Origin: a virus
Lineage: Duplodnaviria; Heunggongvirae; Uroviricota; Caudoviricetes
Virus record (IMG/VR): IMGVR_UViG_3300028603_000003
Reading direction: 5' to 3' (one strand)
Length of the DNA: 64,000 nt
In this document: positions 38,835 to 62,731 of the stretch, piece by piece
How the letters are laid out: each line of letters begins with the position of its first letter
Numbering within the stretch: the stretch's first letter is position 1
Notes under the pieces: model-generated
What the model was told of the DNA's origin: nothing
The model's database searches: none
The model's input: only the letters and a program-made list of their open reading frames with translations
Made by a program: the position numbers and the translations under genes

Positions 38835-38864
38835 CCTCTACATCAACTCGCAACTGAAACTGAC

Positions 38865-39128
38865 ATGAACAAAAATCTTAGATTTCACAGTGAAATTTGC
38901 AGCTTCGCAGTGATCACCGCGTATATTGAGGCAGGTCACGGAAAGCGAGCAGCAGCTAAGGCGGGAAGAGTTGTTTCTGGGCTTCTCGTTGCGGCAGCGA
39001 AATCTGGGGAGATTGCTGCAATCCGCAGACACAATCCGGTAACTGGGGCGAGCACCTCCTATGTAATTTCTGAAGAACAAGTAGAAAAAATCCGCGCAGA
39101 AGCAATTGCTCGCGCAGGTCGCAGATAA
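38865..39128 (+). CDS. hypothetical protein
   Basis: First ORF after the promoter cassette. Confidence 0.4.
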   Translation: MNKNLRFHSEICSFAVITAYIEAGHGKRAAAKAGRVVSGLLVAAAKSGEIAAIRRHNPVTGASTSYVISEEQVEKIRAEAIARAGRR

Positions 39129-39151
39129 TAAACCAAAAGGAAATATATATC

Positions 39152-39346
39152 ATGTTTAGCACTATTGTTGCGGTACTAGCCTTTGTTTTCACAACTTTTT
39201 GTTTTTGTGTGTGGCTATACTCTTTTTGTTTTGATCCCAAGATCGAGGCCCATCGCCAGATGGGCATAGATTTTAAAATTAAGTGGAATGTTATTGCACT
39301 CGCCTTTGTTGTTTGGTTTGTCAGCGGCGTTTATCTTTGGGGATGA
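39152..39346 (+). CDS. small membrane protein
   Basis: Two TM-like segments. Confidence 0.35.
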   Translation: MFSTIVAVLAFVFTTFCFCVWLYSFCFDPKIEAHRQMGIDFKIKWNVIALAFVVWFVSGVYLWG

Positions 39347-39348
39347 AA

Positions 39349-39540
39349 ATGTTTGAACGGATTGTGTTTGAAACGGAGCACCACCCCTCAATATCTGTTA
39401 GATTTGATGAGGAATGCCCGATTCCAAATCTCGGAGATTTTGTTGCAATTGGTGAGCGACCAAACCACATTGAGGGAAAGGTCGTTGAGCGAACTTTTCG
39501 CTACGATTACAAGGCAATTTATATCAAACTGGAGGCATAA
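39349..39540 (+). CDS. hypothetical small protein
   Basis: ORF only. Confidence 0.3.
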   Translation: MFERIVFETEHHPSISVRFDEECPIPNLGDFVAIGERPNHIEGKVVERTFRYDYKAIYIKLEA

Positions 39541-39708
39541 TGCTAGAGGTCGATACCAAGAAAGAAGCAATCGAAACCATCAAGAGAATCTGGAAAGAAC
39601 AGGTAGCTCTTGCAAACGACGATCCCAACAGCTATAATGCAGGTGCTCGCGACGTTGCCTTCAAGATCGGCAGCGAACTTTTTGGTGAAGAATTTAATAG
39701 GGGTTGAA

Positions 39709-40155
39709 ATGTCTAAAAATTCTGAAGAACTGGTTTTGGTTGATATCAAGAATTGCCATCGGAAAGAACTCGACTGGGCGTGCGCTATGTGGGTCGAGCC
39801 GGTCCTTGACCCTGAACGGTGCAAGAAGAAGGGACACAAAGTTGTTTATAGTGACTATAGAGGCAAGGGTGGAACGCTTCAAGTTTTTGTAGCTGAGAAG
39901 CGACTCAGCTATGACTTCAGCGTTGGACCACATCGGGCGGTCGAATACGCGAAGCATTTCGGACTAGAGCTTCATATGAATAACGGAATTACCACAGCAG
40001 TGTTTGATGGTGAGACTGTTTTTGTTGGGGCCAGCTTCGGCGAAGTGGTGGCTCGCGCTGCACTTTATGCGTGTGTTCGCCATCGAGGAACTGTGGGTTC
40101 TGTCCTTGTGCCTGAAGGACTTCACCTGATCTGCGAACAGCCCAAGAATGGCTAG
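39709..40155 (+). CDS. hypothetical protein
   Basis: ORF. Alternative longer start at 39610. Confidence 0.4.
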   Translation: MSKNSEELVLVDIKNCHRKELDWACAMWVEPVLDPERCKKKGHKVVYSDYRGKGGTLQVFVAEKRLSYDFSVGPHRAVEYAKHFGLELHMNNGITTAVFDGETVFVGASFGEVVARAALYACVRHRGTVGSVLVPEGLHLICEQPKNG

Positions 40156-40417
40156 ACCTAAAAAGGTTATAGTAGAGGGGTTCGCCCTAGAAGACTTGGT
40201 CAAGAAGCTTCGCCCATTTGCAGTGGAGCCATGGCTAATGGGCTACTTCACTTCGGAAGAAGTTCTGGCCCTGTATGAATACGGTGCGGGCCTTCCTATT
40301 AGCTGGAACATTGAAACCACCAAACTTTTGATTGAACGTGACCCAACTCGTAGAGTCATCTTCTGGTTCAATCCATCAAAACAAATACAGAAGGAATATG
40401 ATGAATCCCTGCGTTAA
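40148..40417 (+). CDS. hypothetical protein
   Basis: ORF only. Confidence 0.35.
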   Translation: MARPKKVIVEGFALEDLVKKLRPFAVEPWLMGYFTSEEVLALYEYGAGLPISWNIETTKLLIERDPTRRVIFWFNPSKQIQKEYDESLR

Positions 40418-40669
40418 GTGCCTGCACTACTCGGAGACAAACGACCCTTATGACAACCGCCGTGTAAACAAGATTTGTATGAGGCCAACAACAAAGACTG
40501 ATCTGGTCACAGGGAAACAATTACCTCAATTTGTCGAGTGTTATACAGAACGCTCTAAGACTTGGGCACTTTTTGGTGGGTGTGGCCCAAGCGGAAAGTT
40601 TTTCGTTAAACGGCCAGTTGTCAAACTAAACCCACCGGGAAAAGAATAAACTACCGGATAGAAAAGTGC

Positions 40670-40698
40670 TTGACAGCGGGGTCGCGTGGGGATATAAT
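40670..40698 (+). promoter_or_regulatory. consensus sigma70 promoter TTGACA-N17-TATAAT
   Basis: Followed by tcactCCATCAACTAcac and a ggag RBS for a 55-aa GTG-start ORF (40731..40895). Confidence 0.5.
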
Positions 40699-40910
40699 TC
40701 ACTCCATCAACTACACAACTGGAGCGAATCGTGACCCAAGACAACACCCATTGGATGTACTATGACAATCAACTGGTGGTGCCCTTTGTTGTGGCTGACG
40801 ATGGAACTCTGGTTGCAACCCACTGGGAACAATTCGCAACCTTCTTCAACAACGAATTCGAAACCATTTCTGCCGGTATTGAATACTGGGCTTAATCAAA
40901 AGGAAATATT

Positions 40911-41285
40911 ATGCTGATCACTGCCAATTTTATTGACGCCATCAAAGTAAAATTCAAGAAACCGATCTGCGAAGAAGACTTTCCTGAAAAGGGAATGAAG
41001 GCTTGGCTTGTGGATGTTGAATGGGATCAAAAATGCGAATGCTATAAGCTTTACTTTGATTTCTCCGAGTTCGAGGAACACAACGCAAAGTATTTTAAGG
41101 CGGACTATCACCCCAATGTTCACACGCAAGAACTCGGACTCAAAACTGGGCGAAAGAAATTCACCGCAATCGAGGCTGGATGTTACAATCCGAAGTATGA
41201 CGTGTATTTCTCATTCGAAGGTCTGGTTACTCGGGATGACGAGGCATTCAAGCGAGAAATTCTGGCTTACTTGCAAGTGGTGTAA
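40911..41285 (+). CDS. hypothetical protein
   Basis: ORF only. Confidence 0.4.
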   Translation: MLITANFIDAIKVKFKKPICEEDFPEKGMKAWLVDVEWDQKCECYKLYFDFSEFEEHNAKYFKADYHPNVHTQELGLKTGRKKFTAIEAGCYNPKYDVYFSFEGLVTRDDEAFKREILAYLQVV

Positions 41286-41291
41286 AAGCCA

Positions 41292-41320
41292 TTGACAACA
41301 AGCCTGAGTAGAGATACAAT
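41292..41320 (+). promoter_or_regulatory. sigma70 promoter TTGACA-N17-TACAAT
   Basis: Hexamers and spacer. Confidence 0.5.
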
Positions 41321-41350
41321 AGCGACATCTTAACTTGACTCGAAAACAAA

Positions 41351-41893
41351 ATGAACCGCCAACAAATCATCGCTGAAGTTCAAAGCCTGTTCGAAAAAGT
41401 TACTGCCCGTCGAGAGTTTGCAGACATGCAGTTCCCGAATATTGTCTTCGAGGTTGACACTCCGAGGATTTTTGGTCGCGCTTTTCTTTCCAGTAACAAA
41501 CTGGACTTTAACGAAAAAGTCGCGTCCGTTAGTGGGCAAGACTACGTTGACACCGTTCGCCACGAGTTCGCACACCTCATGGTTCAACATGTTTACAAGG
41601 GCAGGAACAAGCAAGCGCACGGCCCCGAGTTTCGCATGATGTGTAGTCTTATCGGATGTTCGGGTAAGACCTACGCAGACATTTCTGAGCTAAAGGGTCA
41701 GATTCAGATTAAGCGAAACAAGGTAACTCGGCTCGCGTTCAAGTGCAATTGTGGGACGCACTACTTTACCAAGCAACAAGGCATCAAGATTCTCGCCTAT
41801 GGTTCAAAGTGCATGTCTTGCAATTCTTCGCCGAAGCATGTAAAATCTGTTGTTGTTGCTTCTAACCATCCTCGATTCCTTAAGGGAGCTTAA
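41351..41893 (+). CDS. SprT-like zinc metalloprotease domain protein
   Basis: HEFAHLMVQH (HExxH), and a C-terminal Cys-rich ribbon CNCGTHY...CMSCN. Confidence 0.6.
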   Translation: MNRQQIIAEVQSLFEKVTARREFADMQFPNIVFEVDTPRIFGRAFLSSNKLDFNEKVASVSGQDYVDTVRHEFAHLMVQHVYKGRNKQAHGPEFRMMCSLIGCSGKTYADISELKGQIQIKRNKVTRLAFKCNCGTHYFTKQQGIKILAYGSKCMSCNSSPKHVKSVVVASNHPRFLKGA

Positions 41894-42031
41894 AATGAAA
41901 TTCGCAATTATTGATTCTCGCACTGGAAAGATTCTCATCAAGTCTGGTTCCGAAGAAATTGTTCGTGAAGCATACAAGGCTTACAGCCAAGGGTGGGGCC
42001 GACTTTCTGGCTACGTCGTTGTGGGGACCAA

Positions 42032-42301
42032 ATGAATAATCAGCGTTATGTTCGCGTGGCTCGCGGAAGAGCAATATACTTTGTACGCGAAGAGTCTTTA
42101 AAGGTGCACAATTCCGGTGCAGATTATTTTGTTCTTCGAATGATCAGCGATTTTGTAGTCGAGGACAATAAACTTTTGAAGTCAAGAATGTCTGTGTTGG
42201 ATATGGTAGATGCCCACATAGAAAGCCACCTAAAATCAGAAGTCATCACCGAAGCACAGTTCGATTCGGAAAAGATCAAAGAACACTATTTGGAGTTTTA
42301 A
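42032..42301 (+). CDS. hypothetical protein
   Basis: ATG overlapping the upstream TGA. Confidence 0.35.
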   Translation: MNNQRYVRVARGRAIYFVREESLKVHNSGADYFVLRMISDFVVEDNKLLKSRMSVLDMVDAHIESHLKSEVITEAQFDSEKIKEHYLEF

Positions 42302-42535
42302 TGGTGTGTTTGGTCATTAACTCACATTTGACTGGTAACTAAAAATGGAATATAGTAGAACCCTAGAGTTTTATGACTCTGACACAGAAGATCGGTTTAG
42401 GGTGGGGCTGAGCGTTATCGAAGGTCAGCGGCTTTTCTTCTTGGAAACCAAAACAGAATCCTGCACAACTTCGTTAAATAAAGCTCAACTTGAAGAACTA
42501 AAAAAGTTTGTAAATAACCTTTGAGGAAAATTTAA

Positions 42536-43417
42536 ATGATGAATATTAAGACCGCACTAGTTACTGTAGCAGCTTCGATTGGCCTTGTCGCTTGTGGGCA
42601 GCAGGTTGAAGTTCCCGCAGCACACGTTGCCAAGATCATGACCAAGGACGGCTATAAGGCCGACACAATCGGTACGTCAAAGTTCCGACTGGACTGGTGT
42701 TGGGCCTATTGCGACAAGCTGGTTCTGCTTGACGCTTCTGACCAGTCAGTCTCTGAGAAGATGGAACTGTTCATGCCACAAGACAAGCTGAACATGAGTT
42801 TTGATCTTCGCCTGACCATGATTGTCAATCCGAAGAAGTACGAAGAACTCTTTGCTCGCATTCCGCCTGTGAATCAAAACGGAGTGGATTTCATTTCTTG
42901 GAACCGCACTTATCAAACTTATGCTCAACAGATCGTCCGTAGCGAGGCCCGAGAGTTCCTGAGTGGCTTCACCATTGCCGAGATTGCTTCGAGTCGAGAA
43001 GCCATCAATGCTCAGCTTAGCGAACGACTGACTAAGAGCATTAACGAAAAGACTCCCTTCCAAGTTCGATATGTTGGTCTGGCTGATATCCAGTATCCAG
43101 AAATCATCGTAAAGGCACAGGAGAATGCGGCGGAGCGACGGGAGCAGATTCAGCAAGAGGAAGCCCAACTAGAAATTTCTCGGGTTCAACTTGAACGCAA
43201 TCTGCAAGAACAGCAACTCCAACGAAAGGTTGATGTAGAGCGAGCACAAGCAGAGGCGGAAGTTGCCCGAATTCAATCCCAGTCGCTTACTCCACAATAC
43301 ATTCGCTACCGCGAACTGCAAATTCTGGAGAAGATGGCTTCGAGTGAGAACAAGATTTTTGTTCCTAGCTCGATGCTAGACTCGGTTGCAGGACAAGTGC
43401 AGGTTGGTCGCCAATAA
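42536..43417 (+). CDS. SPFH/band-7 (prohibitin/HflKC-like) domain lipoprotein
   Basis: Signal peptide plus lipobox LVAC. SPFH-like core, then a long Q/E-rich coiled-coil tail. Confidence 0.55.
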   Translation: MMNIKTALVTVAASIGLVACGQQVEVPAAHVAKIMTKDGYKADTIGTSKFRLDWCWAYCDKLVLLDASDQSVSEKMELFMPQDKLNMSFDLRLTMIVNPKKYEELFARIPPVNQNGVDFISWNRTYQTYAQQIVRSEAREFLSGFTIAEIASSREAINAQLSERLTKSINEKTPFQVRYVGLADIQYPEIIVKAQENAAERREQIQQEEAQLEISRVQLERNLQEQQLQRKVDVERAQAEAEVARIQSQSLTPQYIRYRELQILEKMASSENKIFVPSSMLDSVAGQVQVGRQ

Positions 43418-43460
43418 ATCTTGATGGGAAGGGGGAGGCGAAAGTTTCCCCTTTGTTTAT

Positions 43461-44833: not shown

Positions 44834-44871
44834 AAAAGGGGCTTGACGGCCCCTTTTTCTTTTGATACAAT
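44834..44871 (+). promoter_or_regulatory. PeSL-like cassette copy 3
   Basis: Same hairpin/-35, but -10 is gaTACAAT. Followed by cttcatcgtCAACTAacc. Confidence 0.6.
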
Positions 44872-44905
44872 CTTCATCGTCAACTAACCAAACGGGGAAA
44901 TTTAA

Positions 44906-45202
44906 ATGAGCGGCTACAAATTCAATGTTGGCGACAGAGTGAAATACGTCGGACCCTTTGCATACTGTGAAGAAAACGAATTGGGAACTGTGGTCCGCCT
45001 CGAATTAGGCGGATACCTGCTTGTGCGATGGGACGAAGATGGGTGTACTTGCATGGTCCAGAAAAGAAACGTCGTTAAACAATTTCCAAAACAGAGTCCC
45101 GATGAAATGACTGTCGGTGAATTAAAGAATATTTTGGCACAATACACTGAAGATGTTGGCGTGTCAAAAGCTCTCTCAGAAATTTTTAACCGCACCTATT
45201 GA
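44906..45202 (+). CDS. hypothetical protein
   Basis: ORF downstream of the cassette. Confidence 0.4.
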   Translation: MSGYKFNVGDRVKYVGPFAYCEENELGTVVRLELGGYLLVRWDEDGCTCMVQKRNVVKQFPKQSPDEMTVGELKNILAQYTEDVGVSKALSEIFNRTY

Positions 45203-45227
45203 CTGAAACAAATCTTCAAAGTATAAT
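45199..45227 (+). promoter_or_regulatory. consensus sigma70 promoter TTGACT-N17-TATAAT
   Basis: Followed by tctctCCATCAACTAacc. Confidence 0.55.
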
Positions 45228-45261
45228 TCTCTCCATCAACTAACCAAAAGGAAATACGAAA

Positions 45262-45477
45262 ATGTCCAGCAACATTCCTCTTCGCGACTTTCTGGCCGCA
45301 TCCATCAGCAACAGCGACTTCAACCTTGACGGAGACACCGACCTTGCGGCAGAACTAGTCGGTCGCCCCCTCCCAAGCGGCGCAATCGAACAGATCGAGT
45401 GGGCATTTGAACTAGATGCCAAAATTCGCTACATGCGAGCAGACGCAATGATCCGGGTTTCTCGCTCAACTGATTGA
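45262..45477 (+). CDS. hypothetical small protein
   Basis: ORF only. Confidence 0.35.
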   Translation: MSSNIPLRDFLAASISNSDFNLDGDTDLAAELVGRPLPSGAIEQIEWAFELDAKIRYMRADAMIRVSRSTD

Positions 45478-45502
45478 CAGTCACGAACAATTGCTGTAGA
45501 AT
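45474..45502 (+). promoter_or_regulatory. sigma70 promoter TTGACA-N17-TAGAAT
   Basis: Followed by tcttcaCATCAACTAccc. Confidence 0.5.
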
Positions 45503-45535
45503 TCTTCACATCAACTACCCAATCAAGGAAAGATC

Positions 45536-45919
45536 ATGAAGGCCACCATCTTCCGCGCTGCCCACTACTACGGTGCTTCTACTTACGAGGTTGAACCTGA
45601 AGTGTTTGAATGCCACTACGCTCCTAGCCTGAAGATTGACCCTGACCTTCCTGACGGCGAGTTGTTCGAAGCCTGTCTCCACAGTATGGCTATTCGCGCT
45701 AGTAGCACTGGTCAAATCGCCCACCACAAGGGTTCGATGTCTCGTAACGGAAGTGTTCGTCGCAGTGAACGCGGGTTTGTGACTGTCAAGGGCGACGGCT
45801 GGATTTGCCAGTTTGCTTCTCCCGAAGTTTTGGAACTCGAAAAGAGCTTTTTGAAGTCTGGCGATTATCAGAAGGCGGTCGCCATTCGTGAACCGATTTC
45901 TGTCAGCCATTTCAACTAA
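45536..45919 (+). CDS. hypothetical protein
   Basis: ORF only. Confidence 0.4.
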   Translation: MKATIFRAAHYYGASTYEVEPEVFECHYAPSLKIDPDLPDGELFEACLHSMAIRASSTGQIAHHKGSMSRNGSVRRSERGFVTVKGDGWICQFASPEVLELEKSFLKSGDYQKAVAIREPISVSHFN

Positions 45920-45924: not shown

Positions 45925-45953
45925 TTGACAGTTGGTTGAACTAGAAGTATAAT
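45925..45953 (+). promoter_or_regulatory. consensus sigma70 promoter TTGACA-N17-TATAAT
   Basis: Followed by cctcttCATCgACTgac. Confidence 0.55.
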
Positions 45954-45988
45954 CCTCTTCATCGACTGACACCTGAAGGAACGCAAAA

Positions 45989-46408
45989 ATGATCCACCTT
46001 AAACTCGAACAGGACAAAGTTGTTGGAATTCGCACTTCTTGGGATTCCAGCATGAACCCTAAAGAGTGGGTATCTCGTTGGGATTGGACTAGCTACGAGG
46101 AAGTCGAGAATATTGCCAAGCTGGTATCGGAATACTCAGGTCAAAAGTATCTCCCGGTTGATTGTGGAGAACATGTGAGTCCTCGCTTTGACATCGTAAA
46201 GGCTCCGGTTATTGGAGAAGAAGTTAGCCAGTATTTCAACGGGGATAGCTACCCCGAAGGCGTTGTGGTCAAGATTTCTGACAGTTACAAGATTATCACC
46301 ACTTCTACCGGAAAGAAGTTTTATCGTCGCAAACTTACCGGCTCTTGGCTGAGCCATGGTTGGTCCTTGATCTTGGGCCACCACAAAGAACTTAACCCCC
46401 ACTTCTAA
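45989..46408 (+). CDS. hypothetical protein
   Basis: ORF only. Confidence 0.4.
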   Translation: MIHLKLEQDKVVGIRTSWDSSMNPKEWVSRWDWTSYEEVENIAKLVSEYSGQKYLPVDCGEHVSPRFDIVKAPVIGEEVSQYFNGDSYPEGVVVKISDSYKIITTSTGKKFYRRKLTGSWLSHGWSLILGHHKELNPHF

Positions 46409-47926: not shown

Positions 47927-47955
47927 TTGACTACAGACCCGAAAAGAGTTATACT
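47927..47955 (+). promoter_or_regulatory. sigma70 promoter TTGACT-N17-TATACT
   Basis: Followed by cttctCCATCAACTAcc. Confidence 0.5.
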
Positions 47956-47990
47956 CTTCTCCATCAACTACCAATCACGAGGAACGAAAA

Positions 47991-48419
47991 ATGAATGATT
48001 CTAACTTTAGTGCAGAGTGCGCCCGTCTTCGACAGCATGCAATGGAAGTTAAGCTTGTGGGCGGATTTATGGAAGTCTCCCCCTCCGATATTGTTTTTCT
48101 GCTAGACAAAATCGAATCTTTGGAGAAAGAACTTGAAGTAGCGCGCAAAAGTATTGTCGAAGAACCCACACCCAAAGTTGACAACCAAGAGACTTTTACT
48201 GCGTGGCTTAGGAATACCGGACAATGCCTAGTTCCTGATCAGGGCAATACGACAATTGAAGTAAGCTTGCGAGATGGTACTGTTCAAAGGGGACGGGCAA
48301 ACGAATTTGATTGGCGCATTATCGGCGACGGAGGGGATATCCTTCACTATCGCGGAACCTTTACAAAGATCAATGTTCTCGCTGACATGGACAACACAAA
48401 CAAGGAAGACAAAAAATGA
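47991..48419 (+). CDS. hypothetical protein
   Basis: ORF only. Confidence 0.4.
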   Translation: MNDSNFSAECARLRQHAMEVKLVGGFMEVSPSDIVFLLDKIESLEKELEVARKSIVEEPTPKVDNQETFTAWLRNTGQCLVPDQGNTTIEVSLRDGTVQRGRANEFDWRIIGDGGDILHYRGTFTKINVLADMDNTNKEDKK

Positions 48420-49531: not shown

Positions 49532-50728
49532 ATGCTGAAAGTTCAAGAATACCTCGTAAACAAATCCAATGAAATCGGGACCAAGCTTGGCGCGCTGGAG
49601 GCACTTAAGCAAGAATTTGGAATCAAGTACCGACTTTACCCTGAAGACTCGATGGTACTTCTTGACTACGATCAGATCAACTCCCCAAAGTCTCACCCGA
49701 TTGTCATCGAGTGCCGATCTCTGATTCTCTGCTGCCATACCTTCGGCGTGGTTTCGCGAAAGTTTGACCGCTTCTTCAACTATGGTGAATGCCCCGAGTA
49801 TTACGAAGACTTCGACTTCTCCAAGGCTCAAGTATTCGAAAAAGTTGACGGATCGCTGATCGGCATTTACTATAACTTCTTCACCGATAAGTGGGAAATC
49901 TCGACTCGCGGAATGGCAAAGGCTGAAGGCCCGCACTCTTTCTATCCTTCTTTCCGTGATTGTGTGCTGGATACTTTCGGGTTCCGCGACGAGGATCACT
50001 TCCAAACAGTGTTTGGTGATCTTAGCCTCCGACACTGGACATACGAAGAAGCAATTGAGTGTGAGCGCATTGACCGCCGATACTACACCTTTGTTTTTGA
50101 GTGCATTGGCCCGAAGAACAAGTGTGTTAAGCGATACGACGACGCAGAAATGGTTTGCCTTGGTGTCATTGAAAATTTTACTGGAAAGACCCTACACAAA
50201 AAAGATATTTACGTTGAGCACATCCTGTCGCGAGACTTTGGACTGTACGTTCGTCTTCCGAAGGTCTATGAAGCTTCGGATGCAGAGTCTATCGTAAAGA
50301 TGGTTTCTGAGTTCAAAGACCTCGATGAAGGTGTGGTGGCTTTTGATCCTGTCTCCAATAAGCGAGTCAAGATCAAGTCGGCGACTTACGTTGCTGCGCA
50401 TAAGCTTCGCGGAAACGATCCTGTGCCCACGAAGAAGAACCTTCTTACTGTTATCTTCGAAGGCGAGGTTGACGAGCTTCTGGCGTATTTTCCAGAGTTC
50501 AAAGAATACGTTTATCCGATTGTGGAAGAGGTAAATAGCACCAAGGCTGAACTGTCTCGAATTTGGGAAGAAGTTCAGAACATCGAAACTCAGAAAGACT
50601 TTGCCCTTGCGGTGAAGAACTTCAAGTTTTCCAATGTTCTTTTCGAGGCTCGAAAGACGCAACAAGCAGTCGAAAAGGTTTTCGAAGGAATGTCCCTCAA
50701 CTATAAGCTAAAGCTTTTTGGAGCTTAA
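49532..50728 (+). CDS. RNA ligase (Rnl family)
   Basis: Motif I EKVDGSLIGIY, compare T4 Rnl1 TKEDGSLVSTY. Size about 398 aa, similar to T4 RnlA. Confidence 0.6.
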   Translation: MLKVQEYLVNKSNEIGTKLGALEALKQEFGIKYRLYPEDSMVLLDYDQINSPKSHPIVIECRSLILCCHTFGVVSRKFDRFFNYGECPEYYEDFDFSKAQVFEKVDGSLIGIYYNFFTDKWEISTRGMAKAEGPHSFYPSFRDCVLDTFGFRDEDHFQTVFGDLSLRHWTYEEAIECERIDRRYYTFVFECIGPKNKCVKRYDDAEMVCLGVIENFTGKTLHKKDIYVEHILSRDFGLYVRLPKVYEASDAESIVKMVSEFKDLDEGVVAFDPVSNKRVKIKSATYVAAHKLRGNDPVPTKKNLLTVIFEGEVDELLAYFPEFKEYVYPIVEEVNSTKAELSRIWEEVQNIETQKDFALAVKNFKFSNVLFEARKTQQAVEKVFEGMSLNYKLKLFGA

Positions 50729-51309
50729 ATGGAACTAAAGCATTGGTCTTGTGTTTACTATCTTAACGGGGAAGAGTACAATATCTGTCTGTTCGGAACA
50801 CGGCTACAGGCAGAGAAAGTCTGTAGCCAGTTCGGCTTCATCATTGAGGGTGAACTGGTTCACTCTGAGTTTATCCCAGACAGCACAGCAGAGCTTATGT
50901 TAAAAATTTTCGGGAGCAAAAAGTGAATATGCCAATTGAGATTGTGAAGATAGTTGTCTCTGCGATCCTCATGTTTTCTTTATTGCTTCTACTAGTGTTC
51001 GCCACTGGTAACACGTTCGGACAAAGATGCTCTGCGCTCGGATATCCCACAGGATCAGAGGAATGGAAAAATTGTATTCAAGAACTTAAAACTGGAAGCA
51101 AAAAGTGAGCATTCTAAATCAAAAGAAGCTTGTCAAATTCGACATCAACAACAAGAAGCACCTCGAAGAAGCTAAGCACTTCTTCGATAATAGTCGATGG
51201 AAAACTTCTTGTCCGTTTGAGGTGGAAGCCGACTACATTAGCATTCCACACATGATCGCAGACAAGCTTGCTGTAGCGTTTCTTAACAACAAACTAAAGG
51301 TAAAGTAAT

Positions 51310-52843: not shown

Positions 52844-52872
52844 TTGACAAGCCTCCGTAGTTTGGATATAAT
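52844..52872 (+). promoter_or_regulatory. consensus sigma70 promoter TTGACA-N17-TATAAT
   Basis: Followed by ttgtCCATCAACTAcgg. Confidence 0.55.
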
Positions 52873-52902
52873 TTGTCCATCAACTACGGAGGCTTTTTCA
52901 AT

Positions 52903-53112
52903 ATGTCCATCAACATCTTCAACACCGAATCGAACTTCAACGGTCTGAAAGACCGGATTCGAAATGAAGCGTTTGCTTCTGAGCACACTCTTTCTGAGTT
53001 CTTCGAAATCCATTACGGTCTGAACTGGGCCGACTATGATGACGACGGGCATCTGCTGGAAATTATTCTTACCGATGCTGCAATGATTGAAGCTTCAAAC
53101 TTCTTCAAGTGA
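52903..53112 (+). CDS. hypothetical small protein
   Basis: ORF only. Confidence 0.35.
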   Translation: MSINIFNTESNFNGLKDRIRNEAFASEHTLSEFFEIHYGLNWADYDDDGHLLEIILTDAAMIEASNFFK

Positions 53113-55577: not shown

Positions 55578-55578
55578 A

Positions 55579-55616
55579 GAAAGGGGCTTGACGGCCCCTT
55601 TTTCTTTTGGTAAGAT
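55579..55616 (+). promoter_or_regulatory. PeSL-like cassette copy 4 (-10 TAAGAT)
   Basis: Same hairpin/-35/spacer, but the -10 differs and there is no CATCAACT leader. Confidence 0.55.
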
Positions 55617-57633: not shown

Positions 57634-57643
57634 GGAAGAAAGG

Positions 57644-57949
57644 ATGACTCGAATCCACCACATAGCTATTGAGGCTAAGAACATCCAAGAGAGTGTGAAG
57701 TATTACACCGAAAACTTTTCGTGTGTGGTTAAGTACCAAGACGAAACTTGGGCACTGCTTGGCTTTGAAAATGTTGACCTTGCATTGGTAACTCCCGGTC
57801 AGCACGACCCTCACATTGGGTTTGAGTGTAAGCTAGTGACTTGCTCTCACGAAGGTTGGAAAACTCACCGTGATGGTGTAGAATACATCTACAAGAAAGA
57901 CCCTAGCGAAAACACAGTTGAACTTCTAAATTATTGGAGCCTGTATTAA
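57644..57949 (+). CDS. glyoxalase/VOC-family protein
   Basis: HHIAIEAKN at the N-terminus (metal-binding His) and a later HIGFE. Confidence 0.5.
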   Translation: MTRIHHIAIEAKNIQESVKYYTENFSCVVKYQDETWALLGFENVDLALVTPGQHDPHIGFECKLVTCSHEGWKTHRDGVEYIYKKDPSENTVELLNYWSLY

Positions 57950-58350
57950 TGAAATACATTAAAAACAAAGCTGAACTTTCTATCCGAGATGCTGACACAA
58001 ACAAAGTTCTTCTGAAGCTCAATTCGGCTCTAGTGGAACAACGTAAACTTTCCACGGCCAATGTCATTGAGATTCTAGACCTTCATGCTGAGCGTCTTGG
58101 CCTTCTGGAAGATATGAGTTCTTGTGATCCTACGAATACCGTTGAGAAGCTTGTTCTTCGCAGGCTTGCTGAAGAACACCGAGACATCCAATTCAAGCTA
58201 CAAGAAGCGTGGGGCTTCGAGAAAAACCACCTCTATCACGATTGGTTCGAAGTTCCCTACTGCACCTGTCCGAAAGAAGATAATCGAGAGCGGAAGGGAA
58301 CCTCCTATCAGATCATCAATCTGGGCTGTCCGATTCACGGCGAACTGTAA
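57949..58350 (+). CDS. hypothetical protein with CxxC...C..H cluster
   Basis: ORF only. Confidence 0.35.
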   Translation: MKYIKNKAELSIRDADTNKVLLKLNSALVEQRKLSTANVIEILDLHAERLGLLEDMSSCDPTNTVEKLVLRRLAEEHRDIQFKLQEAWGFEKNHLYHDWFEVPYCTCPKEDNRERKGTSYQIINLGCPIHGEL

Positions 58351-58370
58351 CCAAACTAGGATAAATAAAA

Positions 58371-58676
58371 ATGAAACTAAAGCTTTTGGCCCTTGGCCTA
58401 GCAACAACACTGTCTCTTTCAGCTAACGCTTTGGAGTTTGCCACTATCCAAATGGACAATGGGTCTTATGTGATCCTGACAGACATTAAATGTCCGTATG
58501 GCAAAACATCTGAGCCGAAGTTTGGGTATGTAGTGAAAAACACAAACGATTACGTTGACAATGTTTGTTGGATGGTAGTTCAAGATCGAATTCTTGTTGT
58601 TACCCGCCAAGGCGAATATCAAGACTATCCGGTTGAAGTCACCAAGCCTATCGGAGACAACAAGCCAAAACTATAA
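58371..58676 (+). CDS. secreted small protein
   Basis: Signal peptide LLALGLATTLSLSANA. Confidence 0.4.
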   Translation: MKLKLLALGLATTLSLSANALEFATIQMDNGSYVILTDIKCPYGKTSEPKFGYVVKNTNDYVDNVCWMVVQDRILVVTRQGEYQDYPVEVTKPIGDNKPKL

Positions 58677-58685
58677 AGGAAACAC

Positions 58686-59447
58686 ATGGCAATCGATTTA
58701 GACATAGATTCAATCACCAGCGTCGGCGATCTTTCTTCTGCCATTAGCTCGACCCTAAGCCCTCAGATTTCAAGCTTCTCGGAAGAAGTATCTGGCGGAT
58801 TGGGGGAGCTTGTCATGGGAGCAGGAGGAAATTGCGACATATTTGGTGGCGCAATGGGGATGGCTAGAAGTGCCTCCGAAGGATTCAGAAGCAATTTTAA
58901 AGAATTAACCAAGAACGTTCAAGGGGCATTCGCAACTGTTGCAACTTTGGCTGGAACAATGATCAAAGCGGTTTCAGGTACACTTGGGCTAGTGCAACAA
59001 AAGCTATCAGAATTTTCCGCGTGGCTATCAACACAAGCAGAATCTGTGCTAAACTCAGCTAAGAGTGTTTTGAACTCTCTAAAGTCTGTTGTAAATAGTT
59101 CTTTCTCCGCAGTGGCCTCTGCTATGGCTTCGTGCATTTCTTTCCTACCAGAAATAAAAAACAAGATGCTTGAAGCTGTGTCTGCCATTCCAGTTAGAAG
59201 TTGCTCTCCCATTGCTGGAGCAATCGGAAACATTGGTTTTGGTGCAGGCATTGATTCTGTTGTTAGTCTTGTGACTGAACCGAATGTTGGAAAATTTTCG
59301 GAAATTGCCTTGAGTGGTTTGACTGGAAGTTTGGAAGGAATTTATACTTCAGTCAACGACATCGTCGGCGACATTCCAGACCCAAACAACACTAACAGCC
59401 AATTGTCGTCTATCATGGCGAACATTGACTCGTTGATGGGAGCTTGA
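58686..59447 (+). CDS. hypothetical Ser/Ala/Gly-rich repetitive protein
   Basis: SVLNSAKSVLNSLKSVVNS repeats. Confidence 0.4.
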   Translation: MAIDLDIDSITSVGDLSSAISSTLSPQISSFSEEVSGGLGELVMGAGGNCDIFGGAMGMARSASEGFRSNFKELTKNVQGAFATVATLAGTMIKAVSGTLGLVQQKLSEFSAWLSTQAESVLNSAKSVLNSLKSVVNSSFSAVASAMASCISFLPEIKNKMLEAVSAIPVRSCSPIAGAIGNIGFGAGIDSVVSLVTEPNVGKFSEIALSGLTGSLEGIYTSVNDIVGDIPDPNNTNSQLSSIMANIDSLMGA

Positions 59448-59448
59448 C

Positions 59449-59739
59449 GTGCGAGGCATAGCTAGACTCGGGGACGCCACACAAGGAATCTGCTACTGTC
59501 ATGACAGTCCGATAAATGTAAGCGGAAAGATCATAACAGCTTCAGAGGATCACTTTACTAACGGCAGAGGGACCGCCAGACTTGGAGACTTGGTCATGGC
59601 TGATTGTGGTCACACTGGAAGAATCATTTCCGCCAAAGAAAATGAATTTGTCAACGGACGTGGAGTGGCTAGACTAGCAGATCAGTTTGAAGGATGTTAC
59701 AAAGGAAAAATAATTTCTGCATCAGAGGACACATTTTAA
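59449..59739 (+). CDS. PAAR-repeat protein (gp5.4-like spike tip)
   Basis: Three repeats of ARLGD / GRGTARLGD / GRGVARLAD, about 96 aa like T4 gp5.4. GTG start. Confidence 0.6.
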   Translation: MRGIARLGDATQGICYCHDSPINVSGKIITASEDHFTNGRGTARLGDLVMADCGHTGRIISAKENEFVNGRGVARLADQFEGCYKGKIISASEDTF

Positions 59740-59776
59740 AAAGGGGCTTGACGGCCCCTTTTTCTTTTGGTACAAT
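59739..59776 (+). promoter_or_regulatory. PeSL-like cassette copy 5
   Basis: Identical to copy 2 and followed by cctctCCATCAACTAgac. Coordinates approximate (plus or minus 1). Confidence 0.6.
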
Positions 59777-59811
59777 CCTCTCCATCAACTAGACAAACGA
59801 GGAAACACAAA

Positions 59812-60081
59812 ATGAATCGCAACATCAACTCCAAGTATTCTCGCATGGACGATGACATTCGCATGAATGTGTCTGATCGCATTAATTGTACTGGCTGGCA
59901 CGTCCTTGCGCGCAACATCGAGCTTCGTCCTGAATTTGGGATGTTCGATTTTAGTGTCGTTCCCCTCGACGCTCCCGACTCAATTTCTGCTGGAGCCAGC
60001 CGCAAAGGTGGAGTTTATGTCGGGTACAAGCCCACCGGGCAGCATCTCAACCGCGAATTTAGTTTTAACCGGAGGTTTTAA
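59812..60081 (+). CDS. hypothetical protein
   Basis: First ORF after cassette copy 5. Confidence 0.4.
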   Translation: MNRNINSKYSRMDDDIRMNVSDRINCTGWHVLARNIELRPEFGMFDFSVVPLDAPDSISAGASRKGGVYVGYKPTGQHLNREFSFNRRF

Positions 60082-60269
60082 TGTACAAGTATTTTGACTT
60101 TAAGTGTGGCGAGTGCGAACACGAATTCGAACGAATGGTGAAGGGCGATTCTTTGCCGAAGTATTGCCCTGAGTGTGGAGCAGAAAAGGTTGTGAAGGTT
60201 CCCTCTCGGGCTGGAGCTTTGAAGTTCAAGGGAATCGCAGCAACATCAACTATGCGAATCGAGGACTAA
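60081..60269 (+). CDS. FmdB-like zinc-ribbon protein
   Basis: FKCGECEHEFE...CPECG. Confidence 0.45.
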   Translation: MYKYFDFKCGECEHEFERMVKGDSLPKYCPECGAEKVVKVPSRAGALKFKGIAATSTMRIED

Positions 60270-60272
60270 AGT

Positions 60273-60581
60273 ATGCCTTACTTTTTTGTTTTAATTGGCG
60301 TTTTCGTGACCTTCTTTGGGATTGATTCTCCCAACACGGGCGGTCAAGGGCATCTTTATGTTGTCACATTGCAAATTCTCGCAATATTCTATCTCGTCTG
60401 TGCAACCTACTTTGTAGTCTACGATTTTCATTTGGATGCGACTTTTGCTTCCGAAACTCAGATTTTCCACCAATACCTTGAAGAATCTCAAGAAGCAACA
60501 GACAAAGAAGATTTTGAACGCTGTGCTGTGTTAGCAGAAGCATACGATAAATTTGCGATTAGCCGAGGGAGGATGTTTTGA
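60273..60581 (+). CDS. membrane protein
   Basis: Two TM segments. Confidence 0.35.
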   Translation: MPYFFVLIGVFVTFFGIDSPNTGGQGHLYVVTLQILAIFYLVCATYFVVYDFHLDATFASETQIFHQYLEESQEATDKEDFERCAVLAEAYDKFAISRGRMF

Positions 60582-60916
60582 TGTTCAAACTTTTTGAGAA
60601 GTTGGCAAATCGCCTCAACAAAAATACGCCAGAAGAATTCGGCGTGTCTTATTCGCCACCGGAAAAATCGAGAGTATACACTCTCAAAGAATTTTTGGTT
60701 GTTCTGCGAAACGGAGAAAAGATTACAGTATTTTCTCATTGCTTTGACGTGCAGTATGGAAAAAAGCAAGATGTCATGTTTTGGCTTGTTGATAAGCATG
60801 GCTTTCGAGATATTGGGGTTGCGTACTTCCGCCTAGATGATGTACACTACATCCTAGATGAAGGCATGCGCGAAGCTTACACTGTAAACGAAAAGGACGA
60901 AGAAAATGCTGGTTGA
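60578..60916 (+). CDS. hypothetical protein
   Basis: ORF only. Confidence 0.35.
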   Translation: MMFKLFEKLANRLNKNTPEEFGVSYSPPEKSRVYTLKEFLVVLRNGEKITVFSHCFDVQYGKKQDVMFWLVDKHGFRDIGVAYFRLDDVHYILDEGMREAYTVNEKDEENAG

Positions 60917-61226
60917 TCTGTTTGGCACGAACGACCGTGGAACGGTAAAGGAATACGACGGGCTGGCGTTTGACATTACTGAAGACGGTCTGTATGCGCT
61001 CTCAGCCGAGATTGTGGTGCTGGCTGAAGAGTACAACATCTTCCGAATTTATGTCTGGCTTGACGATGGAGAATCTGTTAACCTGTCGCTGGTAGAAAAA
61101 GTCAAGGACATTGTTTTGGAGGAATGCGACAAGCCTCTTGATGTCATGATCGTTCCGAGCGGAGAAGATTTCGCACCCGAAGAAAAATACATTGTCGAAG
61201 ATAAAAAACTTGTGAAGGTGTATTGA
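60906..61226 (+). CDS. hypothetical acidic protein
   Basis: ORF only. Confidence 0.35.
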   Translation: MLVDLFGTNDRGTVKEYDGLAFDITEDGLYALSAEIVVLAEEYNIFRIYVWLDDGESVNLSLVEKVKDIVLEECDKPLDVMIVPSGEDFAPEEKYIVEDKKLVKVY

Positions 61227-61251
61227 CAGGTCTGGTGATACAAGATACAAT
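61223..61251 (+). promoter_or_regulatory. sigma70 promoter TTGACA-N17-TACAAT
   Basis: Hexamers and spacer. Confidence 0.5.
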
Positions 61252-61277
61252 ACAGCCTAACTTGATCGGAGATTAAC

Positions 61278-61556
61278 ATGGCAAAGAAAATCACTGTAGA
61301 CGAAATCAAGGCTTACATGAAAAACCTTGGCTACGTTGAAGATCGATATGGCAATCTCCGCAAAGAGGCTGGCGGAAAGATTTACCGATTCAAATTCCAA
61401 GATATCAGTGTTCGTTTCGAGCATGGATATCACTCTGAGATTGACGGCAAGCTGAAGTGGGTCAAGGTTGGTGGTGACTACTTCAAAAACATTCGCTGGC
61501 ACGAAGACGGTCGCTTGATCATCGGCAGCAAGATTTTTCGAAAAGGGGCAGCGTGA
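61278..61556 (+). CDS. hypothetical protein
   Basis: ORF only. Confidence 0.35.
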   Translation: MAKKITVDEIKAYMKNLGYVEDRYGNLRKEAGGKIYRFKFQDISVRFEHGYHSEIDGKLKWVKVGGDYFKNIRWHEDGRLIIGSKIFRKGAA

Positions 61557-61756
61557 TGGATAAAGTTTCTTTGGCTCAGAGTTTGGGGCTTGAATATTGC
61601 GGATACGAGACAAATTATCGAGAGTTCGATTTTCACGGAGAAAAGATTAAAGTTTTTGAATGGCAAGCAGAAACCATTTCCGAAGCTTTTGAGTTTGCTT
61701 CTGAACGGGTTTTAGAAGCTCTTGTTAACTCCATCAAACAAAATCTTAAGGGATAA
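61553..61756 (+). CDS. hypothetical protein
   Basis: ORF only. Confidence 0.3.
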   Translation: MMDKVSLAQSLGLEYCGYETNYREFDFHGEKIKVFEWQAETISEAFEFASERVLEALVNSIKQNLKG

Positions 61757-61760
61757 CATT

Positions 61761-62108
61761 ATGGCTCTGTCTTACGCAAAGAAGCGGGAAAAACTTCAAG
61801 ACTTCATGTGGTCTACGAAGAAAGAATACCACAAGCCGAAAGTTCTCGGCAGTCTTTGTCTGACTTACGATGTACTTGGGAGTCACCGCACTGCCATCCG
61901 TAGCTTGGATGGCGAAACACACATCTATCTGATTCATTGGGAAAAGCATCGCCCCAAGTTCAAACAAAAGAAATGCAAGGACGGAAAGACTGTAAGCAAG
62001 CGCATCAAGGACGGCTATTGGGTCATGAAGACCTACCGATTCCCTCGCGACCGCGTGCTGTCGTGCAAACAACACACCCGACACTTTGACATTGTTTTGA
62101 AGTATTGA
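61761..62108 (+). CDS. hypothetical basic protein
   Basis: ORF only. Confidence 0.35.
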   Translation: MALSYAKKREKLQDFMWSTKKEYHKPKVLGSLCLTYDVLGSHRTAIRSLDGETHIYLIHWEKHRPKFKQKKCKDGKTVSKRIKDGYWVMKTYRFPRDRVLSCKQHTRHFDIVLKY

Positions 62109-62117
62109 CACAAACTA

Positions 62118-62671
62118 TGAACATCAAAAAAGAAGTTTCTGCCGCAATGGACATGATTCGAGTGGAACATCTTGGAGTGTTCCCAGAAATTATGGTGGAA
62201 GAAGCCAAGGAATTAGTTCAACTTCATGAAAAAAGAGCAGAAGGATTGCGCGCAATCGCTGGACCTCTTAAAAAGTTCAGAAAGACTTTTGTGCGGGCAT
62301 TGGCTTCTTCCTCCGAAAAAACTAAGCATAGACGGAAGCTCGAAGCGAGCAGAGTAGCACGTCGCGCACATGGTCTAGATGCCTATTCAGAATATTGCAC
62401 AGCAACATACAATGTCAGTAAGTTCAGAGACATTGGAAAACTCATTTCTCTGCGCCAATCTGGAATGCTAGAATTGATGTTACACAAAAATTTCGATGAA
62501 GTTTATTCTTTGATGACGCTTCTTCGAAAACAAAAAGTGGGCGACTTCGAAGGCAGACAAAATCCAGATATGGAGCGACTATACAGAAAGTTTAATTTTA
62601 ACATTGTTGGTGACGAATATTTGCTTGAGGTTCTAGCCAAGCAACTTCAACTCTTATCAAAAAGTCGTTGA
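62118..62671 (+). CDS. hypothetical protein
   Basis: ORF only. Confidence 0.4.
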
Positions 62672-62696
62672 CTGCTATTGGAAGTTGCGTTATAAT
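62668..62696 (+). promoter_or_regulatory. consensus sigma70 promoter TTGACT-N17-TATAAT
   Basis: Followed by cctttCCATCAgtTAacg. Confidence 0.5.
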
Positions 62697-62731
62697 CCTT
62701 TCCATCAGTTAACGACTTAGAGGTACTTGTG

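What the first reader, a model, noticed from the sequence alone, without database searches (positions are those of the whole stretch)
38835..62715. Conserved CCATCAACTA leader immediately downstream of many -10 boxes
At least nine promoters are followed, 3-6 nt after the -10, by (t)CTCCATCAACTA(cc) or a close variant. They lie at about 38841, 40703, 44875, 45232, 45507, 45957, 47959, 52876 and 59780, with a degenerate form at 62700. Its position at about +1 to +15 of the transcript is not needed for sigma70 recognition. Candidate roles: an operator for a phage or host repressor that shuts early promoters off, a processing or stability signal, or an anti-termination signal.
Basis: seen in the sequence. 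Interest (0 to 1): 0.55.

Follow-up and report, generated by a model that had tools for sequence, protein, structure and literature searches.

The report
Conserved start-site block of phage early promoters
Ten strong host-type promoters in a gene-shuffling region of an uncultured T4-like phage share a 9-base block (CATCAACTA) at the predicted transcription start, and it marks the point where small gene cassettes have been swapped between related phages; this is a new example of a known kind of mobile promoter cassette.

Summary
Ten consensus sigma70-type promoters on the + strand (38.8-62.7 kb) carry CATCAACTA or a variant with at most 2 changes, 5-6 nt after the -10. No other site in the window has this arrangement. 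The block is as conserved as the -35 and -10 hexamers (pairwise identity 0.85), while spacers and flanks are near random (0.35). Whole-cassette duplication therefore does not explain it. By the usual spacing rule the A of CATC is +1, so every early mRNA would begin AUCAACUA, about 25 nt before a small ORFan. The leaders are unstructured.

The window is part of a 164.6-kb metagenomic T4-like genome with the gp62-regA-hsp20 order of cyanomyoviruses. Six of the ten promoters overlap stem-loops. Homology breakpoints with close relatives cluster in the promoter-leader intervals (9 of 36, 1.5 expected), including a clean crossover inside the motif. This matches the PeSL mobile regulatory cassettes of T4-type phages.

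RB49, KVP40 and S-RSM4 share the CATC(A/G)A start. The full 9-mer recurs at the same position in at least 90 phage sequence clusters in IMG/VR, against 7-19 for controls.

The operator, stability and anti-termination readings have no direct support. Anti-termination is disfavoured.

The parts
38796..38867 (+). Cassette 1. Terminator-like stem-loop 38796-38821 with the -35 (38806-38811) in its loop; -10 at 38829-38834; motif CATCAACTC at 38841-38849; ATG at 38865 (87-aa ORFan).
   Evidence: In relatives L474-L479 the homology breaks right after CATCAACT.
40670..40733 (+). Promoter (-35 at 40670, -10 at 40693-40698); motif at 40705-40713; GTG at 40731 (54 aa). It belongs to an 883-nt module (40403-41286) that is absent from relative L474.
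44834..44908 (+). Cassette 2. Stem-loop 44834-44857 with the -35 in its loop; -10 at 44866-44871; motif variant CGTCAACTA at 44878-44886; ATG at 44906 (98 aa).
45199..45264 (+). Promoter; -10 at 45222-45227; motif at 45234-45242; ATG at 45262 (71-aa ORFan). This is the left partner of the crossover seen in L425.
45474..45538 (+). Promoter; -10 at 45497-45502; motif at 45509-45517; ATG at 45536 (127 aa). This is the right partner of the crossover seen in L425.
45925..45991 (+). Promoter; -10 at 45948-45953; motif variant CATCGACTG at 45960-45968; ATG at 45989 (139 aa). Short inverted repeats lie around the -35.
47927..47993 (+). Promoter; -10 TATACT at 47950-47955, inside a 9-nt inverted repeat (47941-47949 / 47953-47961); motif at 47962-47970; ATG at 47991 (142 aa).
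52844..52905 (+). Promoter; -10 at 52867-52872; motif at 52878-52886 (5-nt gap); ATG at 52903 (69 aa). A perfect 14-nt inverted repeat (52849-52862 / 52882-52895) encloses the -10. Its 3' arm holds AACTA plus the ribosome-binding GGAGG and is followed by TTTTT.
59738..59814 (+). Cassette 3. Stem-loop 59738-59763 with the -35 in its loop; -10 at 59771-59776; motif at 59783-59791; ATG at 59812 (89 aa). The same cassette, conserved through to the ATG, precedes unrelated ORFs in L105 and L413.
62668..62731 (+). Promoter; -10 at 62691-62696; degenerate motif CATCAGTTA at 62703-62711; GTG at 62729 (264 aa).
27686..27727 (+). Fourth copy of the GGGGC-TTGACG-GCCCC-T5 cassette with an intact TACAAT, but followed by ACTCAAAAATCAAAC instead of the motif. 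In relatives L405 and L474 the same cassette is followed by CCTCTCCATCAACTGGAG and a 71-aa ORF.
55578..55616 (+). Fifth cassette copy whose -10 is degraded (TAAGAT). It appears to act as a terminator only.

Best explanation
The motif is the start-site block of this phage's early-promoter cassettes. Host sigma70-type RNA polymerase binds the near-consensus -35 and -10. The pyrimidine-rich 5-6 nt that follow, plus C-A, place initiation on the A of CATC. The first eight transcribed bases (AUCAACUA) form a G-free, unpaired 5' end that runs into a ribosome-binding site and a small ORF about 25 nt further on. (The positions are shown. The start site and the benefit for initiation or escape are inferred.) Because the 21-27 bp from the -10 through the motif are nearly identical at many promoters, they also serve as the homology where promoter-plus-ORF cassettes recombine. 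This adds, removes or swaps small genes between related phages, as described for PeSL (promoter-early stem-loop) cassettes in T4-type phages. (The junctions are shown. The recombination mechanism is inferred.)
For: 1. Position. The block is locked to the -10 with a 6-nt gap in 9 promoters and a 5-nt gap in 1, whereas its distance to the start codon varies from 24 to 29 nt. The A of CATC is therefore the 7th or 8th base after the -10, with C at -1, which is the usual start rule for bacterial RNA polymerase (established knowledge).
2. Conservation. The motif is conserved like the hexamers (0.85) while spacers and flanks are near random.
3. Structure. The leaders are unstructured and the motif is unpaired in 9 of 10 predicted folds.
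4. Context. The window is a T4-like genome with gp32, RNR, RnlA, gp62, RegA and Hsp20 on a 164,610-bp contig. The motif promoters sit only in a block of ORFans.
5. Stem-loops. Six of the ten promoters overlap stem-loops, with the -35 or the -10 in the loop.
6. Junctions. Relative L425 matches promoter 45199 up to TATAATTCTCTCCATCAACTAACC and then switches to the leader and ORF of promoter 45474, so the 71-aa ORF is missing. L415 carries that same ORF behind an unrelated -35 and spacer, with homology starting at the -10. The L474 family breaks right after CATCAACT at 38848 and 4 nt after the -10 at 27727. Overall, 9 of 36 homology breakpoints fall in promoter-leader intervals that cover 4% of the region (1.5 expected, binomial p about 1e-5).
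7. Published PeSL work. Crossovers were mapped between the -10 and the ATG, and PeSLs end at the SD and start codon (PMC2839356; PMC4122927).
8. Other T4-type phages. They share the first half of the motif at the same place: RB49 has TATAAT-N5-CATCAA or CATCGA, KVP40 has TATTAT-N5-CATCGAAACGA, and S-RSM4 has TATAAT-N5-CATCAACGA plus a syntenic GGGGAC-TTGACG-GTCCCC cassette after hsp20.
9. Wider distribution. In IMG/VR the 9-mer behind TTGAC-N17-19-TAnAAT gives at least 125 matches in at least 90 clusters. The gap is 5 nt in 79 and 6 nt in 27 of them. Three composition-matched controls give 7-19 clusters.
Against: There are no transcript data, so the start site and early timing are inferred from consensus rules and by analogy with T4-type phages. 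The 3' half (AACTA) is not explained by any known polymerase preference. In an unbiased sample of 137 consensus phage promoters that start with CAT, none has CATCAACTA, so the block is not needed for a strong promoter as such. Four of the ten promoters have no detectable stem-loop. Most breakpoints (27 of 36) lie outside promoters. BLAST ends are approximate and not all events are independent. Clustering of junctions shows use as a crossover site, not selection for that use.
Confidence: 0.6

Rival explanations
1. RNA-level leader signal. The 5'-terminal AUCAACUA(AC) of each early mRNA is read by the ribosome or protein S1 as a translation enhancer, or by 5'-end-dependent decay enzymes. It would set translation efficiency or lifetime of early messages, independently of transcription initiation.
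For: The block is always transcribed, single-stranded and just 5' of the ribosome-binding site. In IMG/VR, 87 of 125 matches are followed by SD..ATG within 30 nt, against 10-36% for controls. Leader-like copies without a promoter precede two ORFs: 60244 CATCAACTA..GAGGA..ATG 60273, and 50695 CCTCAACTA..GGAG..ATG 50729. A second leader type, TTAACTTGA, at promoters 41292, 61223 and 28379 resembles the T7 gene 10 epsilon enhancer UUAACUUUA (from memory).
Against: The distance to the -10 is fixed while the distance to the SD and ATG varies, which fits an initiation-linked role better. Promoter-less copies are not enriched overall: 2 of 50 ORFs at up to 1 mismatch against about 0.5 expected. The host and its rRNA are unknown, so complementarity could not be tested.
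Confidence: 0.18
2. Operator. A phage early protein, or a host protein, binds the duplex CATCAACTA at +1 and blocks initiation. This would give the shut-off of early promoters whose mechanism is still unknown in T4.
For: The block overlaps the start site, a classic operator position. It is present at ten early promoters and absent from eight others. The T4 literature states that early shut-off persists without ModA or AsiA and is unexplained (PMC2988021).
Against: There is no dyad symmetry or direct repeat around the motif. No DNA-binding protein was recognised among the ORFs searched. The same 9-mer at the same position occurs in at least 90 phage sequence clusters, and its first half occurs in phages of E. 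coli, Vibrio and Synechococcus. A dedicated binder would therefore have to be equally widespread.
Confidence: 0.1
3. No function of its own. The block is kept uniform only by repeated recombination or gene conversion among promoter cassettes (concerted evolution) and rides along with the -10.
For: Crossovers do occur inside the block. Each phage examined has its own homogenised leader family.
Against: The discriminator between the -10 and the motif is less conserved (0.57) than the motif (0.85), and the spacer is not conserved at all. That is not the pattern expected from conversion tracts. Related forms persist at syntenic or analogous promoters in distant T4-type phages.
Confidence: 0.1

Closest known systems
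PeSL (promoter-early stem-loop) mobile regulatory cassettes of T4-type phages: RB49/phi1, T4/PST and KVP40/nt-1 (Arbiol et al. 2010, PMC2839356; Comeau et al. 2014, PMC4122927)
   Same: Both have sigma70-like early promoters fused to stem-loops placed over the -35 or the -10. Both end at the SD and start codon of small ORFans and are concentrated in hyperplastic regions. Both show indels between close relatives with crossovers between the -10 and the ATG. The A(n)G(n)-loop-C(n)T(n) stem is like the nt-1/KVP40 type.
   Different: This lineage is an uncultured marine-type T4-like phage with cyanomyovirus-like gene order, a group in which dense PeSLs have not been described (S-PM2 has few; PMC4503421). 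Here a discrete 9-nt start-site block is as conserved as the hexamers and is shared by promoters with and without stem-loops. The parts of the PeSL papers that I read do not single out such a block. Mini-circle formation is untested.
Extended consensus of T4-type early promoters (Hinton 2010, PMC2988021; Nolan et al. 2006, PMC1524935)
   Same: Both show extra conserved positions beyond UP, -35, TGn and -10. RB69, RB49 and 44RR prefer C at -3 to -1. RB49 and KVP40 start with N5-CATC(A/G)A.
   Different: Conservation here extends through +8 (AACTA), and the discriminator is 6 nt rather than 5.
Initial transcribed or downstream sequence regions of very strong coliphage promoters: T5 N25 and relatives, lambda PL (..CATCAG..) and T7 A1 (..CATCGA..). 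Sequences and the Bujard/Hsu work are quoted from memory.
   Same: A C(-1)A(+1)T start, with a downstream region that influences late steps of initiation and promoter escape rather than binding.
   Different: No published optimum equal to ATCAACTA is known to me, and no effect was measured here.
T7 gene 10 epsilon translational enhancer, UUAACUUUA (from memory)
   Same: A short, unpaired, A/U/C-rich element just 5' of the SD. The window's second leader type, TTAACTTGA, is 8 of 9 identical to it.
   Different: CATCAACTA itself matches poorly. The proposed rRNA pairing of epsilon is itself disputed. The host rRNA is unknown.

Membership tests
PeSL mobile regulatory cassettes (T4-type phages) | Sigma70-like early promoter (-35, about 17 nt, -10) | tested here: met
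   All ten have TTGACn-17 nt-TAnAAT or TATACT, scoring 10-12 of 12.
PeSL mobile regulatory cassettes (T4-type phages) | Stem-loop (terminator or attenuator) adjacent to or overlapping the promoter | tested here: met
   Met for 6 of 10. The -35 lies in the loop at 38806, 44843 and 59748. The -10 lies in the loop at 52844 (14-nt perfect repeat) and 47927. Short repeats surround the -35 at 45925. None was found at 40670, 45199, 45474 or 62668, which are plain early promoters sharing the same leader.
PeSL mobile regulatory cassettes (T4-type phages) | 3' end formed by the Shine-Dalgarno sequence and start codon of a small, mostly orphan ORF | tested here: met
   The start codon lies 24-29 nt after the motif start. 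The ORFs are 54-264 aa and have no or unknown-function PHROG matches.
PeSL mobile regulatory cassettes (T4-type phages) | Located in a hyperplastic region of a T4-like genome | tested here: met
   gp32, RNR, gp62, RegA, Hsp20 and RnlA were identified. All motif promoters lie in the ORFan block at 38.8-62.7 kb.
PeSL mobile regulatory cassettes (T4-type phages) | Indels or replacements between close relatives, with crossover between the -10 and the ATG | tested here: met
   Junctions in L425, L415, L405 and L474. Nine of 36 breakpoints fall in promoter-leader intervals against 1.5 expected.
PeSL mobile regulatory cassettes (T4-type phages) | Excised mini-circles formed between flanking cassettes during infection | not testable with these tools
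   This needs inverse PCR on infected cells.
Lambda-type nut antitermination site | boxB hairpin and boxA (CGCTCTTTAACAA-like) in the early leader | tested here: not met
   No conserved hairpin. The motif is unpaired and z-scores are mostly at or above 0. By inspection there is no boxA match within the transcribed part.
Sigma70-dependent promoter-proximal pause element | A -10-like TAnnnT hexamer in the first ~20 transcribed bases | tested here: not met
   Direct inspection of the ten leaders listed finds none.
Repressor operator overlapping +1 | Dyad or repeated half-sites | tested here: not met
   No inverted or direct repeat is centred on the motif.
Repressor operator overlapping +1 | A cognate DNA-binding protein | not tested
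   No DNA-binding family was recognised among 30 ORFs scanned against PHROGs. Many ORFans remain unscanned or unassigned.
Epsilon-type translational enhancer | Complementarity to host 16S rRNA and enhancement of translation | not testable with these tools
   The host is unknown. Only the position just 5' of the SD is shown.

The most novel reading that the evidence does not exclude
CATCAACTA(AC) at the first transcribed bases could be a discrete signal shared across phage lineages and read by one conserved factor. That factor could be a so-far unrecognised sequence preference of RNA polymerase or the ribosome for early-message 5' ends. It could also be the missing operator for the unexplained shut-off of T4-type early promoters. 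On this reading the motif is not merely a lineage-specific flavour of start-site consensus. The evidence that leaves this open is its recurrence at a fixed 5-6 nt from the -10 in at least 90 independent phage sequence clusters, against 7-19 for controls, and its absence from an unbiased sample of 137 strong phage promoters.
Probability: 0.15. Interest if true: 0.7.

Novelty: new member of a known kind. Interest (0 to 1): 0.35.

Why it matters
The result shows that early promoters of an uncultured T4-like phage carry a third conserved block, at the start site, that is as constrained as the two classical hexamers. The same block marks where gene cassettes are exchanged. This extends the PeSL model of modular shuffling to a marine, cyanomyovirus-like lineage. 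It also gives a practical marker for early transcription units and cassette boundaries in metagenomic phage genomes. If the block affects initiation, escape, translation or early shut-off, it would be a compact and portable regulatory part. It would also offer a way into the open question of how T4-type early promoters are switched off.

Tried and rejected
- A near-identity search of 8 kb against INPHARED found no match, so no annotated close relative is available.
- An IMG/VR search with the RnlA protein found nothing.
- The bacterial-genome scan with the promoter-plus-motif pattern gave about chance-level hits plus conserved Paenibacillus and Ruminococcus loci in unrelated contexts. It said nothing about a host.
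- A full-text search for the 9-mer returned only unrelated primer sequences.
- Rfam found no RNA family at the leaders.
- A short-query BLAST of a consensus leader against isolate phages gave scattered single hits. The best one, Vibrio phage 1.121.O, turned out to have its own, different leader families.
- I considered the idea that the motif is a universal optimum for strong phage promoters. I rejected it because 0 of 137 unbiased CAT-start consensus promoters carry it.
- I considered whole-cassette duplication and rejected it.
- I rejected a nut-like antiterminator, a sigma-dependent pause element and an IHF, FNR or DnaA-type site on sequence grounds (and inspection).
- An NAD-capping preference (consensus HRRASWW, from memory) does not fit TCCATCA.
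- Enrichment of promoter-less motif copies upstream of ORFs was not significant.
- The KVP40 region scanned has no consensus -35 promoters. It has only MotA-box-type stem-loop cassettes.

Full report
**1. The observation**

Searching CCATCAACTA with up to one mismatch gives 14 matches against 3.8 expected, and 0 of 100 shuffles reach 14. Listing every TTGACn-16-18 nt-TAnA(A/C)T site shows ten + strand promoters, at 38806, 40670, 44843, 45199, 45474, 45925, 47927, 52844, 59748 and 62668. Each is followed by a pyrimidine-rich 5-6 nt and then CATCAACTA or a variant with 1-2 changes. A window-wide scan for a -10-like hexamer, then 5-6 nt, then the motif with up to 2 mismatches recovers these ten and no other site with a -35. 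Eight further intergenic consensus promoters lack the block, and two more consensus matches lie inside ORFs.

**2. Not a by-product of duplicated cassettes**

Four promoters (27695, 38806, 44843, 59748) and one dead copy (55578) share a near-identical terminator-promoter cassette, AAAAGGGGC-TTGACG-GCCCCTTTTTCTTTTGGTACAAT. The other promoters have unrelated spacers and flanks.

Mean pairwise identity among the nine promoters with the 6-nt gap is:
- -35 hexamer: 0.88
- spacer: 0.35
- -10 hexamer: 0.86
- discriminator: 0.57
- motif: 0.85
- next 12 nt: 0.41
- flanks: 0.34

The values are unchanged when two of the three motif-bearing cassette copies (38806, 44843) are dropped. The block is therefore an independently conserved element on a par with the hexamers.

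**3. Anatomy**

The gap to the -10 is fixed at 6 nt (5 nt once), while the start codon lies 24-29 nt after the motif start. With the usual rule for bacterial RNA polymerase (start 7-8 nt after the -10, pyrimidine at -1, purine at +1; established knowledge), the A of CATC is +1. The core then spans -1 to +8, and every transcript would begin AUCAACUA. The 49-nt leaders fold weakly, with z-scores mostly at or above 0, and the motif is unpaired in 9 of 10 minimum-energy structures. Rfam finds nothing at the leaders.

**4. Genomic setting**

The window belongs to a 164,610-bp metagenomic contig. It has no near match among deposited phages. It encodes the following:
- gp32, 43% identical to cyanomyovirus and Methylophilales-phage proteins
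- RNR and RnlA
- gp62, RegA and Hsp20, in the order found in Synechococcus phage S-RSM4

The motif promoters start right after hsp20 and are confined to a block of small ORFs with no or unknown-function matches.

Six of the ten promoters are entangled with stem-loops:
- The -35 lies in the loop of a G4C/GC4-T5 terminator at 38806, 44843 and 59748.
- The -10 lies in the loop at 52844, inside a perfect 14-nt repeat whose 3' arm holds AACTA plus the SD and is followed by T5.
- The -10 also lies in a loop at 47927.
- Short repeats surround the -35 at 45925.

The arrangements are among the subclasses described for PeSLs.

**5. Relatives and junctions**

Close relatives were recovered by three routes: the cassette sequence (L105, L405), a discriminator-plus-motif pattern in metagenomes (L413, L415, L425), and the RegA cluster (L474-L483).

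- L425 matches promoter 45199 through TATAATTCTCTCCATCAACTAACC and then continues as the leader and ORF of promoter 45474. The 71-aa ORF between them is absent, so the crossover lies inside the shared block.
- L415 carries that ORF behind a different -35, spacer and upstream gene, with homology beginning at the -10. Its next promoter is orthologous to 45474 up to the leader but drives a different ORF.
- In the L474 family the hsp20 cassette is conserved through CCTCTACATCAACT and is then fused to the homologue of ORF 39152. The window has an extra ORF (38865-39128) inserted exactly there.
- The cassette at 27695 is followed 4 nt after its -10 either by the motif plus a 71-aa ORF (L405, L474) or by 2.1 kb of other DNA (the window, L476).
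- An 883-nt module made of promoter 40670 plus two ORFs is present only in the window and ends 6 nt before the -35 of promoter 41292.

Taking all homology-block ends, 9 of 36 distinct breakpoints fall in promoter-leader intervals that make up 4.1% of the compared region (1.5 expected, binomial p about 1e-5). BLAST ends are approximate and the events are not all independent, but the individual junction alignments are unambiguous.

**6. Comparison with known systems**

The PeSL papers describe composite terminator/promoter elements that end at the SD and ATG, lie in hyperplastic regions, and flank indels, with crossovers mapped between the -10 and the ATG. All computationally testable defining features are met here. 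Mini-circle formation cannot be tested.

The first half of the block is shared by other T4-type phages at the same position:
- RB49: TATAAT-N5-CATCAAAA, CATCAAAT, CATCGAAA, CATCAAGA and CATACCAACTAAGG
- KVP40: TATTAT-N5-CATCGAAACGA behind MotA-box stem-loops
- S-RSM4: TATAAT-N5-CATCAACGAAAG upstream of cobS, plus a syntenic GGGGAC-TTGACG-GTCCCC-T6 cassette after hsp20

The literature notes 'additional regions of consensus' in T4 early promoters and a preference for C at -3 to -1. From memory, lambda PL and T7 A1 also start CATC. The finding is therefore a lineage-specific, unusually sharp version of a known feature, set inside a known kind of cassette.

**7. Beyond this lineage**

The gap is 5 nt in 79 and 6 nt in 27 of them, and 87 are followed by SD..ATG within 30 nt. 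Three composition-matched controls gave 28, 11 and 20 matches in 19, 7 and 8 clusters, with flat gap distributions.

At least 22 of the 117 loci share a protein homologue with the window, including gp44, gp62 and RegA in two of them (L019, L115). Several contigs have whole families of CATCAACT(A/G)ACGAAAGG leaders. Yet 0 of 137 unbiased CAT-start consensus promoters carry the 9-mer, so it is one recurrent leader type and not a universal optimum. Whether this reflects a large clade, horizontal spread of cassettes or convergence is unresolved.

**8. Mechanism and rivals**

I commit to the start-site and leader module of PeSL-like early-promoter cassettes, with confidence 0.6. The positions, conservation, lack of structure and junctions are shown. 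The start site, early timing and any benefit for initiation or escape are inferred.

- An RNA-level role in translation or stability (0.18) fits the 5'-of-SD position and two promoter-less copies, but those copies are not statistically enriched.
- An operator for early shut-off (0.10) fits the position and an acknowledged gap in T4 biology. It lacks symmetry and a candidate binder, and it would need an equally widespread protein.
- Pure concerted evolution (0.10) is contradicted by the less conserved discriminator and the unconserved spacer.
- Anti-termination is rejected.

**9. Verdict**

This is a real, well-defined element and a new member of a known kind. Interest is moderate (0.35). The open points are what the AACTA half does and why the exact 9-mer recurs across many phage contigs.

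Noticed in passing
window 24857-25102 (+): A group I intron (Rfam RF00028, 79 bits) lies between the two halves of the ribonucleotide reductase large-subunit reading frame (22959-24884 and 25555-26658).
   Followed up: no
window 41292-41350, 61223-61280, 28379-28440 (+): Three consensus promoters lack CATCAACTA but share another leader core, (C)TTAACTTGA or AACTTGA. It is 8 of 9 identical to the T7 gene 10 epsilon enhancer UUAACUUUA (from memory). The 41292 version is conserved in relatives L474 and L477.
   Followed up: partly
window 60244-60275 and 50695-50731 (+): Leader-like copies with no promoter upstream: CATCAACTATGCGAATCGAGGACTAAAGTATG before ORF 60273, and CCTCAACTA..GGAGCTTAAATG before ORF 50729. 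They may be decayed cassettes or a hint of a promoter-independent role. The enrichment is not significant overall.
   Followed up: partly
window 52903-52917 and 59812-59832 (+): Two ORFs behind motif promoters begin with a near-copy of the motif: ATGTCCATCAACATC and ATGAATCGCAACATCAACTCC. About 0.03 such copies at up to 1 mismatch are expected by chance.
   Followed up: no
window 55578-55616 (+): A fifth copy of the GGGGC-TTGACG-GCCCC cassette has TAAGAT in place of the -10. This is a 'half' cassette of the kind described for degraded PeSLs.
   Followed up: partly
window 32433-32888 (-): This minus-strand ORF is syntenic with a gene of relatives L474-L476 that carries a SegE-type GIY-YIG homing-endonuclease domain (PF19835). 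It is one of the few minus-strand genes in the window.
   Followed up: no
window 36658-37452 (+): The ORF just upstream of gp62 corresponds to a gene of the relatives annotated with PF25187 (Acb3), a family linked to anti-defence functions.
   Followed up: no
L472 (S-RSM4) 26220-26290; L484 (KVP40) 9853-9930 and 24579-24660: Cultured T4-type phages carry analogous composite elements. S-RSM4 has a terminator with the -35 in its loop at the same position after hsp20. KVP40 has stem-loops holding a TTGCTT MotA box, followed by TATTAT-N5-CATCGAAACGA.
   Followed up: partly
L040/L090, L080, L074, L108, L062, L035/L096 (IMG/VR contigs): These phage contigs, which showed no protein homology to the window, each carry several promoters with CATCAACT(A/G)ACGAAAGG-type or TATCAACTA leaders. 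Each contig has its own homogenised discriminator.
   Followed up: partly
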